Of a stretch of DNA of 64,000 bases, positions 25,998 through 34,198 are shown piece after piece; position 1 is the stretch's first letter, and every line of letters starts with the position of its first letter. Under the pieces are notes generated by a model. The model made no database searches. It saw only the letters and a program-made list of their open reading frames with translations, and had not been told where the DNA came from. A program made the position numbers and the translations under genes. The stretch comes from a virus. The DNA is taken from IMG/VR virus record IMGVR_UViG_3300035180_001452, positions 58,381 to 122,380 of that record; one strand, given 5' to 3'.

Positions 25998-26345
25998 ATG
26001 TCCAAGGTTAAGGAGTGGTTGGAGAAGCTTGCGGGGCTTTTGGCCCCAAAGGCGAGGATCGTGGAGAGCACGGCTACCGGTGACGATCAGACCGGCATCG
26101 TCACTGTCGCCCTTATCCAGGGCGATGCGCGCATCGAGATGGCGGTCAGCTATGACCGCCAGAATTTCCGGGTTGGCTTCTCCGTCAAGAAGGCGGAGGG
26201 CTACCCGGTCTCTTCTGGAAGCGTTACCTTCGAGAACAACTGGTACGAGGTTCATCTCGAGAATATTCTCGAGATGAAGTTCAAAAGTGCATCGATGATC
26301 CCGTGGGGGATCATCGGGGCTGAGATCGAGAAGGCTATCAGGTAG
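25998..26345 (+). CDS. Cassette protein, family A (115 aa)
   Basis: ATG after repeat-borne AGAAAGG SD; C-terminal IPWxxIxxEIxKAI shared with 26441 and 28949. Confidence 0.8.
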   Translation: MSKVKEWLEKLAGLLAPKARIVESTATGDDQTGIVTVALIQGDARIEMAVSYDRQNFRVGFSVKKAEGYPVSSGSVTFENNWYEVHLENILEMKFKSASMIPWGIIGAEIEKAIR

Positions 26346-26440
26346 CCTTCTCGATCACCAAGGAGGAGGGGCTAACGCCCCTCCTTCTTGGGCTGAGTGC
26401 TTAGGGGACATGAGCCCCTGCACTCGGAAAGGAAAAGGAA

Positions 26441-26806
26441 ATGGAGTTGAAGATTGAGAAGTTTCTGCGCCTGGTGACGGGGCTTCTCCTGCCCCCCGAC
26501 ACGGTCTGTGTCGAGGAGACCGTGCTCGGTACTGACGAGTCGGGCATCGTGGGGTACATGTTCCAGATTGGCGAGGTCAACCTGGACGTTGCACTCACGA
26601 ACAACCGGGACGAGTGGACGTTCACCCTTGATACTATCAAGGGAGGTCGGAAGATCCTGATGGTCACCGTCTTGTACCAGCACGCGTGGTACAGCATGTC
26701 TATCCGGGCCAAGGACGTGGAGACGACCCGGAAGTTCCGGGATGCCTCGAGCATTCCCTGGGACGAGGTCGGGAAGGAGATCGGCAAGGCCCTCTCTGAC
26801 ATCTAG
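26441..26806 (+). CDS. Cassette protein, family A (121 aa)
   Basis: GTDESGIV and RKFRDASSIPW shared with paralogues. Confidence 0.8.
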   Translation: MELKIEKFLRLVTGLLLPPDTVCVEETVLGTDESGIVGYMFQIGEVNLDVALTNNRDEWTFTLDTIKGGRKILMVTVLYQHAWYSMSIRAKDVETTRKFRDASSIPWDEVGKEIGKALSDI

Positions 26807-26899
26807 AGAGGGCCTGGGCCTAAGGAGGAGGGGCTAACGCCCCTCCTTCTTGGGCTGAGCCAGAAGAATGTACCTCTGGCTTGGGAGGAGGTGAATAAA

Positions 26900-27037
26900 A
26901 TGGTGGGCCTCGTTGTGGTGGTAGTAGTTGTGGCGGGCCTGGTTAAGCTCCTCGAGTCGGTTCGTGAGGAGCAAAACCGTGCCCTCACCTTCTCCTTTAT
27001 GGAGATCATGAAGGAGGAGAAGGAGGAGGAGAAGTAA
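26900..27037 (+). CDS. Small membrane peptide, family B (45 aa; not in the ORF track)
   Basis: SD GGAGGTG; MVGLVVVVVVVAGLVKLLESVREEQNRALTFSFMEIMKEEKEEEK. Confidence 0.75.
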   Translation: MVGLVVVVVVVAGLVKLLESVREEQNRALTFSFMEIMKEEKEEEK

Positions 27038-27134
27038 TTCTCCTCCTCCAGCCTAAGGAGGAGGGGCTAACGCCCCTCCTTCTTGGGCTGAGTGTTTAGA
27101 GGACATGAGCCTCTGCACTCAGAAAGGTAGGAAG

Positions 27135-27602
27135 ATGAAGCCTAGCAAGAAGATCCTTGCTGGGTTCCAGGTCCTCTTTGGATCTGGGATCCAGCAGGGG
27201 GTGACCCCAGAAGTTTGGGTCACTACCAGCAAGCGGACTTTTAAGATGGTCCGCTGTGACATCGGAACCCCCGTTGTGGGGGTCATCACCCGCAGCGGCT
27301 GGCAGGTTGCCGCTATCCAGTCCGAGGAGAAGTATGTCTGGCTCGCTCCTGGCGAGAGCGAGCCAAGGATCGGGTCTCTCGTCAAGCTCCTTCAGGAGTT
27401 CTTGAAGGATAAGGGTGATGGCGTGTTCGACATCATCCTTGCCTTCAAGAAGGAGGTCGAGGAGACCAAGGCTAGCAAGAAGGATGATGAGACCTTTATC
27501 GACCTGCTTTATAAGCAGGCCGAGATGGTCTCCTCAACCATCTCGAGCACGTACTCCAGCGTGGTGGAGTACGTTACCAACATCCCCAAGATTTTCTCGT
27601 AG
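27135..27602 (+). CDS. Cassette protein, family C (155 aa)
   Basis: Paralogue of 30566 (EEKYVWLAP; identical end EYVTNIPKIFS). Confidence 0.8.
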   Translation: MKPSKKILAGFQVLFGSGIQQGVTPEVWVTTSKRTFKMVRCDIGTPVVGVITRSGWQVAAIQSEEKYVWLAPGESEPRIGSLVKLLQEFLKDKGDGVFDIILAFKKEVEETKASKKDDETFIDLLYKQAEMVSSTISSTYSSVVEYVTNIPKIFS

Positions 27603-27684
27603 GGGATGTTGGTAGCCTGAGGAGGAGGGGCTAACGCCCCTCCTTCTTAGGCTGAGTGTTTAGAGGACACGAGCCTCTGCACTC

Positions 27685-27825
27685 AGAAAGGCAGTGCAAT
27701 GACTTGACTGCCTTGGATCGCTGATCGCTAGGCTAGTTAATGCTTTAGGGGCAGTATTAACTAGCTAGAGTGCAGCCTTGGTATTAAAGTGTGGCTGCAA
27801 TAGGGCTAACGCCCTTCCTTTTTAT
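27685..27825 (+). ncRNA. Structured ~140-nt module, copy 1, containing the SD + ATG-ACT-TGA minigene (27699..27707)
   Basis: Stems aaggcagt/actgcctt, ctagttaat/attaactag, tgcagcc/ggctgca and gggc-taac-gccc plus T-run; repeated five times. Confidence 0.55.
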
Positions 27826-27875
27826 GCTGAGTGCTTAGAGGACATGAGCCTCTGCACTCAGAAAGGAAGAAGAAG

Positions 27876-32180: not shown

Positions 32181-32261
32181 AGAGGGCCTGAGCCTGAGGA
32201 GGAGGGGCTAACGCCCCTCCTTCTTGGGCTGAGTGTTTAGAGGACATGAGCCTCTGCACTC

Positions 32262-32402
32262 AAGGAGGCAGTGCAATGACTTGACTGCCTTGGATTGCTA
32301 GTTGTTAAGCTAGTTAATACTTTAGGGGCAGTATTAACTAGCTAGAATGCGGTTCTAGTGTTAAAGTGTGGCTGCAATAGGGCTAACGCCCTTCCTTTTT
32401 AT
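32262..32402 (+). ncRNA. Structured module copy 4 (minigene 32276..32284)
   Basis: AAGGAGG + ATGACTTGA; same stems. Confidence 0.55.
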
Positions 32403-32450
32403 ACTGAGCATTCTGGGGACATGAGCCCCTGTGCTTGAAAGGGGAGGCAT

Positions 32451-32843
32451 ATGACGCCTCGCGAGAAGTATCTTGCGGGATTCTGGGCGTTGTTTGAGCC
32501 CGTAATTCCCGCAGCCCTCCGGACGGTAGTCCGGAGGACCGTCCGGCTTAGTAAAAGCCGTCAAACGTTTGAGACTGCTCTCGTAGTAGTCTCAATCGAA
32601 GTCGGTGGGCGAACCCTTAGGATGGTTCGACAGCCGATCAAGGACTCCCAAACGGGAGTCCTTGCGAGCAGTGGCTGGAAGATCGCTTGGGTTTTCCAGC
32701 CAGATCCAGAGAATGGAACGTATGTTCCATTTCCCGAGGGCCGGTGCGTTTGGCTGGCCCCGGGATCCGACCAGCCCAAGATCGGGTTGGTCGGGGACCT
32801 TCTCCGGGAGGCGTACGGACTCCCGGAGAGGATCAACCGGTAG
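32451..32843 (+). CDS. Cassette protein, family C-related (130 aa)
   Basis: MTPREKYLAGF, GWKIA and VWLAPG..P.IG motifs. Confidence 0.75.
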   Translation: MTPREKYLAGFWALFEPVIPAALRTVVRRTVRLSKSRQTFETALVVVSIEVGGRTLRMVRQPIKDSQTGVLASSGWKIAWVFQPDPENGTYVPFPEGRCVWLAPGSDQPKIGLVGDLLREAYGLPERINR

Positions 32844-32967
32844 CTTTGTATAAGGAGGAGAAGGCTAGTATTTTCTCCTCCTTATACTACGACTGGTGAT
32901 TTTTTTACCGGGAGGTGTGTTCCGTCAGCTTATGCGTAAGTATAGGCTCGGATCACATCTCCCGGTA

Positions 32968-33112
32968 GAAAGGCAAAAGTAAAAATGACCTGACTACCTA
33001 TTGGTAGCTGGCGCTAGATTAGTTAATACTTTAGGGGTAGTATTAACTATCTAGTGTATAGCTCTAATATTAAGGTGTGGCTGCAATAGGGCTAACGCCC
33101 TTCCTTTTTATA
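32968..33112 (+). ncRNA. Structured module copy 5, most diverged (minigene ATG-ACC-TGA 32985..32993)
   Basis: tagttaatact/agtattaacta stem and gtggctgcaatagggctaacgcccttccttttt end retained. Confidence 0.5.
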
Positions 33113-33160
33113 TTGAGTGCTTAGAGGACATGAGCCTCTGCACTCAGAAAGGAGATGTAG

Positions 33161-33565
33161 ATGATTGCGGGTGTCTTGGTCGGGCTCATCGAGCAGCTGC
33201 TGCTCGGTGACTTCAGCATCTTAGGGCGGTATGTGCTTGGTAACCCTAAGATGCACGAGTGCTGTCACAAGACATTGGTTGTTGATGGTGCCGCTGTGTT
33301 GGTCACCGTTGCCGTGTCCGGTTTTGGTCACGGTATCGTGACCGTCTCCTCTAGCTCCTCTAGCGGTACCTATGGTGCTCGGTCTGTGGAGGTAGTGGGC
33401 ATCATGGGACTCCCGGATCATACCTGGGCCGTCAACGGGCATACCGTTGATGGTGGGAGGCTGATCTCAGTGGAGGAGGTCGTTGGAAAGGTTGGTGTTG
33501 GTGGAAGCTTCGCGTGGAAGGGCGTATGCAAGGAGGTGGTGGACCTCTACCTTAAGTTGAGGTAG
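33161..33565 (+). CDS. Cassette protein (134 aa, Val/Gly-rich)
   Basis: SD AAAGGAG after the repeat; stop codon inside a hairpin. Confidence 0.75.
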   Translation: MIAGVLVGLIEQLLLGDFSILGRYVLGNPKMHECCHKTLVVDGAAVLVTVAVSGFGHGIVTVSSSSSSGTYGARSVEVVGIMGLPDHTWAVNGHTVDGGRLISVEEVVGKVGVGGSFAWKGVCKEVVDLYLKLR

Positions 33566-34198
33566 AGGTCCAGCCTGAGGAGGAGGGGCTAATGCCCCTC
33601 CTTCTTGGGCTGTCTGAGGGCTAAAAGTTTGTTACTACTCTCTGACAAATGTCTACATGTTTAGGGGCTAACGCCCCTCTTTTTAGTGCTGGGGTATAGT
33701 ACTATACCCTAGGAGGATGTTACATGGTACGTCCAGATGGCATCCGATTCGGGGCCTTCGGCCCCTGTTGCTATGCCGGGCATACCATGACGGCAATCTT
33801 CTTTACTACAAAGACTACCGGTAGGGTGCAATCCTGCCTGTACTTTTAGTAATAGCCTATACTCAAGTAAACAGTACCGGGAAGTGTGCACACTCTCCGG
33901 TATATCAGTCATAGCTACGCTATGGTATCAGTAGCAGCTACACTAGAGCTTTAGCCGGTAGGTTTCAGTCGCAGCTAGGCTATGATCTTTTGGTGAAAGT
34001 GGCCACCATAGGGCAAAAAGTGCCACATTTTTGGGCCGAAAATGGACAAAAATGGGCCAAAACATGGATGGGTACTTTTGGGGCTATGGGAGCCACTTAT
34101 CCAATAGCCTATAGCTACTTTACCTGGGTAAACAATACTCACCCTGCGGTAAGGGTGTTTACATATAGTGCACAGTTGGTAGACTACCAGAGAGGAGG

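What the first reader, a model, noticed from the sequence alone, without database searches (positions are those of the whole stretch)
26324..33572. Nearly every cassette stop codon is embedded in a gene-specific hairpin
Seen: the sequence after each stop is the reverse complement of that gene's own last codons. Examples: gatcgagaaggcta/tagccttctcgatc (26324-26356), aggccctctct/agagagggcct (26787-26815, 32161-32189), ggaggaggagaa-GTAA-ttctcctcctcc with the stop in a GNRA loop (27022-27049, 29752-29779), taccaacatcccc/ggggatgttggta (27575-27614, 30991-31030), tggctggtcga/tcgaccagcca (30453-30480), tggacctctacct/aggtagaggtcca (33540-33572). The stems differ between families, so the feature is structural and not merely copied. 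Intergenic RNA is therefore tiled with back-to-back helices. Inference: 3' protection of processed mRNAs, coupling of ribosome arrival to refolding, or a by-product of how cassettes are captured.
Basis: seen in the sequence. Interest (0 to 1): 0.7.

Follow-up and report, generated by a model that had tools for sequence, protein, structure and literature searches.

The report
Stop-codon hairpins in hairpin-tiled phage genes
In a block of small phage genes almost every stop codon sits at the tip of its own RNA hairpin, and these are the longest members of a dense run of hairpins through all the genes of this block, which probably makes the messages hard to degrade.

Summary
In 13 of 15 cassette genes (25998-33565, + strand) the last 4-5 codons pair with the 10-15 bases after the stop. 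The other two stops lie in a helix of different topology.

Chance and GC content do not explain this.
- An ungapped stop-enclosing stem of at least 9 bp occurs at 11/15 array stops, against 4/87 genes outside the island.
- Each gene's own downstream arm beats swapped or shuffled arms.

The whole 14.5-kb GC3-rich module is tiled with short sense-strand hairpins, coding interiors included. It comprises 15 cassettes, four further genes and two RNA-polymerase-like genes.
- Mean 90-nt fold z is -3.7 in the array and about -0.3 to -0.5 in the flanks.
- 14/15 genes fold better than every synonymous-codon permutation.
- Paralogues show 38 compensatory double changes, against 8.9 expected.
- G·U outnumbers A·C inside stems 42:4.
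- Ribosome sites stay open.

A second virus (45% polymerase identity, uniform 51% GC) shows the same module-specific tiling and its own stop hairpins.

Stops still stand out: 11/15 have stems of at least 12 bp, against 7% of internal codons.

Best reading (inferred): a decay-resistant mRNA design, in which the stop hairpin seals the spacer before the conserved hairpin and acts as a 3' barrier. I class it as a new variant of a known kind. The scan noted a similar cassette-spacer architecture in another genome, but not the coding-region tiling.

The parts
25950..40480 (+). Hairpin-tiled, GC3-rich module: 15 cassette genes, four further genes and two RNA-polymerase-like genes
   Evidence: GC is 0.52-0.55 here against about 0.39-0.44 in the flanks. 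Hairpins of at least 9 bp number 36/44/27/13 per 4-kb bin here, against 0-6 elsewhere in the 122-kb record. Mean fold z is -3.7 (array), -3.1 (34.2-37.0 kb) and -2.0 (37.0-40.5 kb), against -0.25 and -0.48 in the flanks.
26324..26356 (+). Stop hairpin of gene 25998-26345 (15 bp, loop CAG; stop TAG in the 3' arm)
   Evidence: -23.8 kcal/mol
26787..26815 (+). Stop hairpin of gene 26441-26806 (12 bp, loop 5)
   Evidence: -21.8
27022..27049 (+). Stop hairpin of gene 26900-27037 (12 bp; stop TAA inside the GUAA loop)
   Evidence: -22.3
27573..27616 (+). Stop hairpin of gene 27135-27602 (15 bp around a 14-nt loop that holds the stop)
   Evidence: -26.1
28271..28300 (+). Stop hairpin of gene 27876-28286 (12 pairs with one A·A mismatch)
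   Evidence: -16.3
28800..28862 (+). Gene 28384-28803: the stop lies in the 5' arm of an outer helix that closes a 15-bp hairpin placed after the stop
   Evidence: -28.2, z -5.2. The L010 orthologue has an 11-bp outer helix.
29250..29278 (+). Stop hairpin of gene 28949-29269 (13 bp, 2 G·U)
   Evidence: -19.3 on the + strand, -14.2 on the - strand
29504..29533 (+). Stop hairpin of gene 29362-29520 (8-bp core; stop TAA in the loop)
   Evidence: -17.3
29752..29779 (+). Stop hairpin of gene 29612-29767. It is identical to 27022-27049 although the two proteins are otherwise unrelated.
30453..30480 (+). Stop hairpin of gene 30042-30467 (12 bp, loop UAGU holding the stop)
30481..30518 (+). Representative copy of the conserved 17-18-bp hairpin with a UAAC loop (HP1). 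It abuts the stop hairpin. There are 14-15 copies in the window.
   Evidence: The variant in L061 changes both sides of the stem and keeps the loop.
30519..30551 (+). Representative copy of the second conserved hairpin (HP2), followed by an open Shine-Dalgarno sequence and the start at 30566
30989..31032 (+). Stop hairpin of gene 30566-31018 (same as 27573-27616)
31678..31710 (+). Stop hairpin of gene 31331-31699 (14 bp with 3 G·U; folds only on the sense strand)
   Evidence: -18.0 on the + strand, -4.8 on the - strand
32161..32189 (+). Stop hairpin of gene 31797-32180 (12 bp)
32836..32897 (+). Gene 32451-32843: the stop lies at the edge of a 6-bp outer helix that closes a 17-bp hairpin placed after the stop
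   Evidence: -32.0, z -5.5
33540..33572 (+). Stop hairpin of gene 33161-33565 (15 bp, loop 3)
   Evidence: -24.7
34622..34648 (+). Stop hairpin of island gene 34199-34636 (11 bp)
36988..37008 (+). Stop hairpin of island gene 36291-37004 (8-9 bp, loop 3)

Best explanation
The stop hairpins are sense-strand RNA helices. In each, the last 4-5 codons (fixed by the protein) pair with the 10-15 untranslated bases after the stop (free to evolve). The stop therefore sits at the apex.

They are the terminal and longest tiles of a hairpin tiling selected across all messages of this module, which is probably the early module. Only the Shine-Dalgarno and start regions are left open.

Proposed function: decay resistance.
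- (1) Tiling removes single-stranded entry sites for endonucleases and for chemical hydrolysis.
- (2) The spacer a terminating ribosome needs between the stop and the conserved 18-bp hairpin HP1 is sealed by pairing it back onto the coding end.
- (3) Each cistron thus ends in its own stable helix, which keeps the stop codon behind a 3'-exonuclease barrier. This would matter most if HP1 is cut, RNase III-style, into single-gene messages whose 5' ends are then capped by HP2.

Shown here: the structure, its strand, its selection, its module specificity and its conservation in a second virus.
Inferred: transcript class, processing and stabilisation.

My odds: about 0.8 that this is selected sense-RNA structure, and about 0.45 for the stability function as stated.
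For: Real and non-random:
- Stop-enclosing hairpin of -17 kcal/mol or better: 13/15 array genes against 5/94 elsewhere.
- Ungapped stem of at least 9 bp: 11/15 against 4/87.
- Own against swapped downstream arms: mean -22.5 against -13.2.

Sense-strand RNA rules:
- Non-Watson-Crick oppositions inside strong stems are G·T 42, A·C 4, other 5 in the array, and 20/2/10 in the rest of the island. The flanks give 6/9/16 and 4/2/17.
- Counting only distinct hairpins inside coding sequence gives 18:3 and 15:2.
- The 31678-31710 hairpin folds at -18.0 on the + strand and -4.8 on the - strand.

Selection on structure:
- 14/15 array genes fold better than all 30 synonymous-codon permutations. Mean z is -5.0 for the array, -7.1 for the island genes, -12.8 for the polymerase genes and -1.95 for 12 downstream controls.
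- Paralogues and orthologues show 38 compensatory double changes, against 8.9 +/- 2.7 expected; 0 of 1000 permutations reach 38.
- L061 paralogues 2758-3018 and 6000-6203 end in different codons, each matched by its own 3' arm.

Translation kept possible:
- P(unpaired) is 0.5-0.74 from -14 to +5 of starts.
- The stop sits at the apex (0.43-0.63 from -5 to +2).
- P(unpaired) is 0.13-0.31 from +3 to +29 after the stop.

Geometry:
- The HP1 core starts 23-29 nt after the stop in 13 of 14 cases.
- The stop hairpin, HP1 and HP2 abut one another (z -8.3).

Stops carry the longest stems: at least 12 bp at 11/15 stops, against 98/1334 internal codon positions.

The genes are real: dN/dS is 0.11-0.40, and GC3 is 0.70 against 0.33 in downstream genes.

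Independent replicate: record G001 (L061) has 45% polymerase identity and 48-56% GC throughout. It has 27/41/26 hairpins per 4 kb only in the homologous module, against 0-4 elsewhere.

Precedents:
- In B. subtilis, decay starts with endonucleolytic cuts; PNPase removes the upstream pieces and RNase J1 the downstream ones, and structured 3' ends are resistant (passages of PMC3997798).
- 3'-terminal fragments are attacked by cuts upstream of the stop (passages of PMC4838370). [quoted passage not shown]
Against: - No RNA data exist: no transcript ends, no half-lives and no probing. No RNA run holds the stretch.
- HP1 alone would already be a 3' barrier, so a second helix is not obviously needed unless HP1 is cleaved. 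Cleavage is unshown, and the phage record encodes no RNase III. The host enzyme would have to do it.
- Stop stems may be longer simply because one arm is free of coding constraint. That needs no stop-specific function.
- By the energy measure the stops are only modestly better enclosed than internal codons: 87% against 63% at -17 kcal/mol or better, Mann-Whitney p = 0.015.
- The 15 stops amount to only about 10 independent hairpin families.
- 'Early module' and 'Bacillota host' are inferences, drawn from gene order and from 31-37% capsid and portal matches.
- No sigma-70-type promoters are enriched: 8 found against 8.3 expected.
Confidence: 0.45

Rival explanations
1. The global folding is selected for some purpose other than stability, and the stop hairpin has no role of its own. 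Possible purposes are hiding the transcripts from RNA-targeting host defences, escaping Rho or similar surveillance of untranslated RNA, or helping the polymerase avoid backtracking. On this view the stop hairpin is longer only because its 3' arm is unconstrained.
For: - The tiling covers coding interiors and the polymerase genes alike.
- The sense strand is G-rich and C-poor: G 0.31, C 0.23.
- Hairpin loops show no shared motif.
- Hairpin positions turn over between distant paralogues while the density stays high.
Against: - Stops are enclosed by stems of at least 12 bp ten times more often than internal codons.
- The stop hairpin always fills the fixed gap before HP1.
- Nothing identifies any defence system or factor.
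Confidence: 0.2
2. The hairpin acts in translation termination. It might slow the ribosome over the last codons, present the stop in a loop, eject or pass on the ribosome as it refolds (coupling to the next cistron), or insulate each cassette's ribosome site from its changing neighbours.
For: - The stop lies at the apex in nearly all cases.
- The 3' arm is about as long as the stretch of mRNA a terminating ribosome covers (recalled), so HP1 stays folded.
- The next Shine-Dalgarno sequence is brought close through two helices.
- TAG is used at 12/15 array stops, against 29/87 elsewhere.
Against: - Two array genes and several L061 genes place the hairpin wholly after or wholly before the stop.
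- Internal hairpins are of the same kind.
- Every gene has its own strong, open ribosome site, so coupling is not needed.
Confidence: 0.15
3. The origin is at the DNA level or mutational. The inverted repeats might be made and perfected by template switching, might serve as cruciform or single-strand recombination sites for cassette exchange (attC-like), or might be scars of cassette capture.
For: - Cassette order and content differ between the window, L009 and L010, and contigs of four runs join cassettes differently.
- Template switching could produce concerted two-sided changes.
- Fold z-scores are similar on both strands, -3.68 and -3.59, as for any inverted repeat.
Against: - G·T is tolerated about ten times more often than A·C on the sense strand only.
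- Ribosome sites are kept open.
- The hairpins are spread through genes rather than placed at cassette borders.
- The borders of exchange are the conserved HP1/HP2 repeats, which suffice for homologous recombination.
- The gene-specific stems share no conserved core sequence.
Confidence: 0.07
4. It is a composition artefact: GC-rich sequence folds well by chance.
For: The island is 13-15 points richer in GC than its flanks.
Against: - Dinucleotide-preserving and synonymous-codon-preserving shuffles are all beaten.
- In G001 the GC content is nearly uniform, yet only the homologous module is tiled.
Confidence: 0.02

Closest known systems
PeSL (promoter-early stem-loop) cassettes of T4-type phages (PMC2839356, passages read; PMC4122927, abstract read)
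   Same: Conserved composite intergenic repeats with a stem-loop run from one gene's stop to the next gene's ribosome site. They flank small orphan genes, and relatives differ by gain, loss and replacement of whole cassettes at these repeats.
   Different: - PeSLs carry a strong sigma-70-type promoter and a terminating stem-loop. Here no such promoter is seen, and the standard HP1 copy has no free U-run.
- The passages I read of the 2010 PeSL paper and the abstract of the 2014 one describe no gene-specific stop hairpins and no hairpin tiling of coding sequence.
- The host group differs.
RNase III processing hairpins between cistrons of phage early polycistronic mRNAs (T7 early region, recalled; phage SP82 of B. 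subtilis, Panganiban and Whiteley 1983, seen only as reference 19 in PMC4838370)
   Same: Long intercistronic helices lie in early phage messages. After cutting, the remaining structures protect the new ends.
   Different: Cleavage is untested here. HP1 has a 17-18-bp uninterrupted stem with a conserved UAAC loop. The additional gene-specific helix over each stop has no described counterpart that I know of.
3'-terminal stabilising stem-loops (terminator hairpins, REP elements, chloroplast 3' inverted repeats); general principle in PMC3997798 (passages read), the examples recalled
   Same: A stable hairpin at the end of a cistron blocks 3'-to-5' exonucleases.
   Different: Those hairpins lie in the 3' untranslated region and are often shared sequence families. 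Here one arm is the gene's own last codons, so each hairpin is unique and the stop sits at the apex.
Designed 'superfolder' mRNAs (PMC7457604 and PMC8940940, abstracts seen in a search listing) and genome-scale ordered RNA structure of some RNA viruses (recalled)
   Same: Coding sequence is recoded at synonymous sites to maximise double-stranded content and resist hydrolysis and nucleases, while the initiation region stays open.
   Different: Those cases are engineered, or concern RNA-virus genomes. Here it is a natural dsDNA phage module, limited to one gene class, built from short local hairpins (mean stem 10 bp, loops mostly 3-5 nt).
Integron attC sites
   Same: Cassette-specific imperfect inverted repeats begin at or near the end of each cassette gene.
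   Different: attC sites act as single-stranded DNA, with conserved core sites, extrahelical bases and an integrase (recalled). Here the pairing rules point to sense RNA, the gene-specific stems share no core, and identical hairpins fill the gene interiors.

Membership tests
PeSL-type mobile regulatory cassettes | Conserved composite repeat between the stop of one small orphan gene and the ribosome site of the next | tested here: met
   There are 14-15 copies of HP1 followed by HP2 or an alternative hairpin and a Shine-Dalgarno sequence. The array proteins have no Pfam or PHROG family.
PeSL-type mobile regulatory cassettes | Sigma-70-type early promoter inside the repeat | tested here: not met
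   8 promoter-like sites were found over 25700-41000, against 8.3 +/- 2.8 in shuffles, and none lies in the repeat. Other promoter types were not covered.
PeSL-type mobile regulatory cassettes | Relatives differ by cassette gain, loss or replacement at the repeats | tested here: met
   L009 and L010 carry the same repeats with different cassette order and content. Alternative joints occur in contigs of 4 runs.
Intrinsic (Rho-independent) terminator overlapping the stop | GC-rich stem followed directly by a U-run | tested here: not met
   None of the stop hairpins appears among the 26 terminator-like sites; they are followed by HP1. Only the five non-coding modules and 33663 carry a stem plus T-run.
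Integron attC | Conserved core sites shared by otherwise different hairpins | tested here: not met
   The arms of the 13 stop hairpins share no common core. The attC consensus itself is recalled, not tested with a model.
Integron attC | Folding as single-stranded DNA of one strand, with an integrase nearby | tested here: inconclusive
   G·T:A·C asymmetry shows one-strand folding in the sense orientation. This fits RNA and cannot exclude + strand ssDNA. I did not search for an integrase.
RNase III processing site of phage early mRNA | Intercistronic helix of about two turns | tested here: met
   HP1 has 17-18 bp, or 16 bp with a 2x2 internal loop in L061.
RNase III processing site of phage early mRNA | Cleavage in vivo or in vitro | not testable with these tools
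   No RNA run holds the stretch. No RNase III gene is in the phage record.
3' stabilising stem-loop | Stable hairpin at the 3' end of the cistron | tested here: met
   Energies are -16 to -26 kcal/mol at 37 C and -8 to -14 at 65 C for 11 distinct stop hairpins.
3' stabilising stem-loop | Lengthens mRNA half-life by blocking 3' exonucleases | not testable with these tools
   This needs half-life measurements.
Genome-scale ordered RNA structure / superfolder mRNA (works-like comparison) | Folding energy far beyond sequence-order shuffles over long coding stretches, with an open initiation region | tested here: met

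The most novel reading that the evidence does not exclude
A lineage of large phages has evolved natural 'superfolder' messages. One whole gene class, a shuffling array of small takeover-type genes plus the phage's own minimal RNA polymerase genes, is recoded at synonymous sites into a continuous chain of short sense-strand hairpins. 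Only the ribosome sites are left open. Each cistron is closed by a made-to-measure helix over its stop codon, so that these messages outlast host or phage-induced RNA decay, possibly at high temperature. This would be a previously undescribed layer of selection on phage coding sequence, and a natural counterpart of engineered structure-stabilised mRNAs.
Probability: 0.35. Interest if true: 0.8.

Novelty: new variant of a known kind. Interest (0 to 1): 0.64.

Why it matters
If the reading holds, protein-coding genes of a dsDNA phage can be shaped as strongly by mRNA folding as by the protein. GC3 rises from 0.33 to 0.70, and compensatory changes occur inside codons.

This gives a natural test case for three questions:
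- how far coding sequence can be folded without losing translation;
- what 3'-end helices over stop codons do to message life in Gram-positive-type decay systems;
- how shuffling gene cassettes stay self-contained at the RNA level.

It also matters for annotation. The strong inverted repeats create long spurious antisense ORFs in this region, and the repeats fragment assemblies.

Tried and rejected
- Rfam, gathering thresholds, whole window: 0 matches. No tRNA genes.
- blastn of 26300-29300 against the phage collection: no match. tblastn of the polymerase-like protein against the same collection: no match.
- Exact 26-mer of HP1 in viral contigs: 0 matches. A 17-mer gave 31 loci, 30 with a single match and one with two. 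A 20-mer in genome contigs gave 19 single matches in unrelated taxa. I treated all of these as chance terminator-like hits and did not use them.
- The search for related loci with a cassette protein in viral contigs: none. With the polymerase alignment: only L061 again.
- Homologues P0002, P0003 and P0005 of the 27135-27602 protein exist and differ in the residues that form the 5' arm. The most direct extra covariation test was therefore not done.
- No RNA holder is listed for the stretch. This is no evidence on expression.
Contigs of X1-X4 break at the repeats, so depth and gaps there say nothing.
- RNase III families PF14622 and PF00636 are absent from the 79%-complete phage record. This is not evidence against processing by a host enzyme.
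- Synonymous recoding of only the last 14 codons from the array's own codon usage was a weak control. Many recodings re-draw the same codon, and only 7/15 genes had at most 2/25 recodings as good as native.
- The archaeal-virus idea (a TATA-like box in the non-coding modules, a weak TRASH-domain hit) was dropped after the capsid and portal matched Bacillus and Moorella phages.
- Tetraloop motif enrichment in coding hairpins: none seen.
- Literature searches found no description of stop-spanning gene-specific hairpins or of hairpin-tiled coding sequence in a DNA phage. These were and, on the neighbouring themes.
This report is the same text with that field added.

Full report
**Setting.** The window is bases 58381-122380 of a 122-kb linear virus record estimated 79% complete. 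It is a tailed phage.
- It encodes a portal, a major capsid protein and a large terminase with an intein. A ribonucleotide reductase and a helicase also carry inteins.
- The nearest isolates by capsid and portal are 0305phi8-36-like Bacillus phages and a Moorella phage, at 31-37% identity. Together with the strong GGAGG-type ribosome sites, this suggests a Bacillota-like host. That is an inference.
- Genes on the minus strand end at 25742. From 25998 onward all genes are on the plus strand.
- Between about 25.9 and 40.5 kb the GC content is 0.52-0.55, against about 0.39-0.44 on both sides.
- This island holds 15 small genes of 45-155 codons, four genes of 145-253 codons, and two genes of 522 and 647 codons.
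I checked only that the first carries a DCDGD motif.
- The array proteins match no Pfam or PHROG family.

**The observation.**
- With my gene list, 13 of 15 array genes have a closed hairpin whose 5' arm is the last 4-5 codons and whose 3' arm is the 10-15 bases after the stop. Stems are 8-15 bp, loops mostly 3-5 nt, and energies -16 to -26 kcal/mol.
- The stop lies in the loop or in the first bases of the 3' arm. Averaged over the 15 genes, P(unpaired) peaks at 0.43-0.63 from -5 to +2 around the stop and falls to 0.13-0.31 from +3 to +29.
- The two exceptions (stops at 28801 and 32841) are not paired with their own codons. Each lies in the 5' arm of an outer helix that closes a strong hairpin placed just after the stop. 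The L010 orthologue of the first has an 11-bp outer helix.
- Three more island genes end in their own stop hairpins.

**Chance and composition.**
- Elsewhere in the record, 5 of 94 crude gene calls reach -17 kcal/mol, and several of those are probably spurious antisense ORFs inside the island.
- Outside the island, 4 of 87 genes have an ungapped stop-enclosing stem of at least 9 bp, against 11 of 15 in the array.
- Joining each gene's end to the downstream arm of a different family gives a mean of -13.2 over 180 combinations, against -22.5 for a gene's own arm. Shuffling the downstream 24 bases gives z = -2.2 to -7.7 for 13 genes, and -0.2 and -0.4 for the two exceptions.
- A codon-preserving recoding of only the last 14 codons was a weak test, because codon usage is so biased. 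Only 7 of 15 genes had at most 2 of 25 recodings as good as native.

**Relatives.**
- Two metagenome contigs (L009, L010) carry the same conserved spacers with a different order and set of cassettes. New cassettes there have new stop hairpins that match their own last codons.
- Orthologous hairpins differ by changes that keep pairing. In the 31678-31710 hairpin a U·G becomes U-A. One copy of the small MTVK-type gene restores a C-G pair where another copy has C·C.
- A more distant virus (L061, record G001; polymerase 45% identical) has a homologous array. Its conserved hairpin keeps the UAAC loop but has changed both sides of the stem.
- Most of its genes upstream of the polymerase end in their own stop hairpins. 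Two paralogues there end in different codons, each matched by a different 3' arm.

**The turn in the analysis.** The hairpins are not confined to stops.
- A sliding 90-nt fold against 25 dinucleotide shuffles gives mean z:

| Region | Mean z |
|---|---|
| Array | -3.68 |
| 78 windows wholly inside array coding sequence | -3.34 |
| 19 windows holding a stop hairpin | -6.16 |
| 34.2-37.0 kb | -3.08 |
| Polymerase genes | -1.98 |
| Flanks | -0.25 and -0.48 |

- A census of hairpins with stems of at least 8 bp and loops of 3-9 nt finds 15.2 per kb in the array, against 1.5 and 2.8 per kb in the flanks. 76 lie wholly inside 5217 nt of array coding sequence. 40% of array bases lie in such a hairpin, against 3-6% in the flanks.
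- Along the whole record the density is 36/44/27/13 per 4 kb in the island and 0-6 elsewhere.
- Permuting synonymous codons within each gene keeps protein, codon usage and GC3. 14 of 15 array genes fold better than all 30 permutations (mean z -5.0). All four island genes and both polymerase genes do too. Twelve downstream control genes average -1.95, with a few individually significant.

**RNA or DNA?**
- Inside strong stems, isolated non-Watson-Crick oppositions are G·T 42, A·C 4, other 5 in the array and 20/2/10 in the rest of the island. The flanks give 6/9/16 and 4/2/17.
- Counting only distinct hairpins inside coding sequence, the ratios are 18:3 and 15:2. Base composition alone would give about 1.6:1.
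- The 13 distinct stop hairpins hold 9 interior G·U and no A·C.
- L061 shows 25:8 and 12:2.
- This is the rule of folding on the sense strand, that is, the message. Plus-strand single-stranded DNA cannot be formally excluded. A strong strand-specific mutation bias could contribute to the asymmetry.
- The ribosome sites are spared: P(unpaired) is 0.5-0.74 from -14 to +5 of starts, directly after a fully paired HP2 arm. That speaks for RNA.

**Selection.**
- The genes are real coding sequences: dN/dS is 0.11-0.40 in five pairs, and GC3 is 0.70 against 0.33 in downstream genes.
- Between paralogues and orthologues at 66-88% nucleotide identity, stems of at least 8 bp show 38 two-sided changes that keep pairing. 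The expectation is 8.9 +/- 2.7 when 3' partners are permuted among pairs of the same type; 0 of 1000 permutations reach 38. One-sided breaks are 73 against 133 expected. Hairpins were defined in either member, so some pairs are counted twice.
- Substitutions are rarer in stems (0.267) than outside them (0.347).
- Between distant paralogues (51-55% identity) many hairpins are replaced rather than kept, yet the density stays high.

**Independent replicate.** Record G001 is 48-56% GC throughout. Even so, hairpins of at least 9 bp number 27/41/26 per 4 kb only at 96-108 kb, the homologous array plus polymerase genes, and 0-4 elsewhere. Plus-strand rules give more hairpins than minus-strand rules (z-scores). 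The folding therefore belongs to this gene class and is not a by-product of GC content.

**Are stops still special?** Yes, but how much depends on the measure.
- By energy, 63% of 453 sampled internal codon positions are enclosed at -17 kcal/mol or better, against 87% of stops (Mann-Whitney p = 0.015).
- By ungapped stem length, at least 12 bp encloses 11/15 stops but only 98/1334 internal positions.
- The 15 stops represent about 10 independent hairpin families. Two pairs are identical and others are related.
- Longer, cleaner stems at stops are expected if one arm is free of coding constraint. They are also what a 3' barrier would need.

**Anatomy of a spacer** (z -8.3). The order is: stop hairpin; immediately the conserved 17-18-bp hairpin with UAAC loop (HP1); immediately HP2; then an open Shine-Dalgarno sequence and the start.
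- The HP1 core begins 23-29 nt after the stop in 13 of 14 cases. The base of HP1 therefore lies about 10-16 nt after the stop.
- That is roughly the length of message a terminating ribosome covers (recalled). The 3' arm of the stop hairpin fills exactly this gap.
- Standard HP1 copies have no free U-run and are not picked as terminators. Only the five roughly 140-nt non-coding modules and one further site are.
- No sigma-70-type promoters are enriched.

**Mechanism proposed.** The messages of this module are built to resist decay.
- Folding removes single-stranded entry sites.
- The unavoidable spacer between stop and HP1 is sealed by pairing it back onto the coding end. Because that end is fixed by the protein, each 3' arm is unique.
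- Each cistron then ends in a stable helix with the stop behind it. If HP1 is cut by a host RNase III-type enzyme, the stop hairpin becomes the 3' end of the upstream message, and HP2 plus a strong ribosome site caps the downstream one.
- This fits what is known for B. subtilis: endonucleolytic initiation, PNPase on upstream pieces, RNase J1 on downstream pieces, resistant structured 3' ends, and cuts upstream of the stop to remove 3' fragments (passages of PMC3997798 and PMC4838370). [quoted passage not shown]
- The stop hairpins would remain folded at 65 C, at -8 to -14 kcal/mol.
- None of the functional steps is shown. There are no RNA data, and the phage record has no RNase III gene.

**Comparison with known systems.**
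- The array architecture works like the PeSL cassettes of T4-type phages: conserved spacers flank orphan genes and mediate shuffling (PMC2839356, PMC4122927). It fails the promoter criterion, and the 2010 passages and 2014 abstract that I read mention no stop hairpins or coding tiling.
- It resembles RNase III-processed early operons and 3' stabilising stem-loops in principle.
- In design it resembles engineered structure-stabilised mRNAs (PMC7457604, abstract in a listing).
- It does not fit integron attC sites.
- My searches of the paper library found no description of gene-specific stop hairpins or of hairpin-tiled coding sequence in a DNA phage.

**Verdict.**
- The larger finding is the module-wide, selected, sense-strand hairpin tiling, of which the stop hairpins are the longest members.
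- I class it as a new variant of a known kind.
- Function remains inferred.

Noticed in passing
window 25950-40480: The GC-rich island owes its GC mainly to third codon positions: GC3 is 0.70 in the array and 0.64 in the polymerase genes, against 0.33 downstream. In the related record G001 the same module is no richer in GC than the rest, so the GC rise here looks like a cost of building stable stems in an AT-rich genome, or a module transfer.
   Followed up: partly
window 27685-27830, 29855-29995, 31150-31285, 32265-32405, 32975-33115: Five copies of a roughly 140-nt non-coding module lie between cassettes. Each opens with a ribosome site and a two-codon ATG-ACT-TGA mini-frame inside a hairpin, holds further hairpins, and ends in a 5-bp UAAC hairpin plus a T-run (terminator-like).
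   Followed up: partly
window 37027-38595 and 38537-40480: Two overlapping genes have no Pfam match. The first carries a DCDGD motif, as in the catalytic loop of multisubunit RNA polymerases. Only one relative was found in the viral collection (L061, 45% identity) and none among isolated phages.
   Followed up: partly
window 17433-19958, 52095-54644, 58000-61476: Intein (Hint) domains lie inside the large terminase, a SNF2/ResIII helicase and a class II ribonucleotide reductase.
   Followed up: no
window 25998-33565: TAG is the stop of 12 of 15 array genes (TAA 3, TGA 0), against 29 TAG of 87 genes outside the island.
   Followed up: partly
window array coding sequences: Coding hairpins prefer certain codon phases. 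Of 115 hairpins, 59 are in the phase pairing codon positions 1-3/2-2/3-1, 37 in the phase 1-2/2-1/3-3, and 19 in the phase 1-1/2-3/3-2.
   Followed up: no
window 27022-27049 and 29752-29779; genes 26900-27037 and 29612-29767: Two otherwise unrelated small proteins share the same last residues (EEEK) and an identical stop hairpin, as if the gene end plus spacer travels as one unit.
   Followed up: no
window 26401-26802, 28119-28799, 28867-29265 (minus strand): Long antisense ORFs of 132-226 codons arise opposite the array genes. They are probably artefacts of the inverted repeats and GC3 bias, and they mislead a length-based gene caller.
   Followed up: no
L061 98-281 and 1600-1820, also 9128-9149: Clusters of a 25-nt unit containing a small palindrome (nine copies of the 22-nt core) lie in the divergent region before the array of the related virus. 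A 286-nt cassette is perfectly duplicated in tandem at 2785-3382.
   Followed up: no
window 25900-34200 in runs X1-X4: Contigs of four DNA runs join cassettes in other orders and carry unseen cassette ends. This points to a population of array variants. The assemblies break at the conserved repeats.
   Followed up: partly
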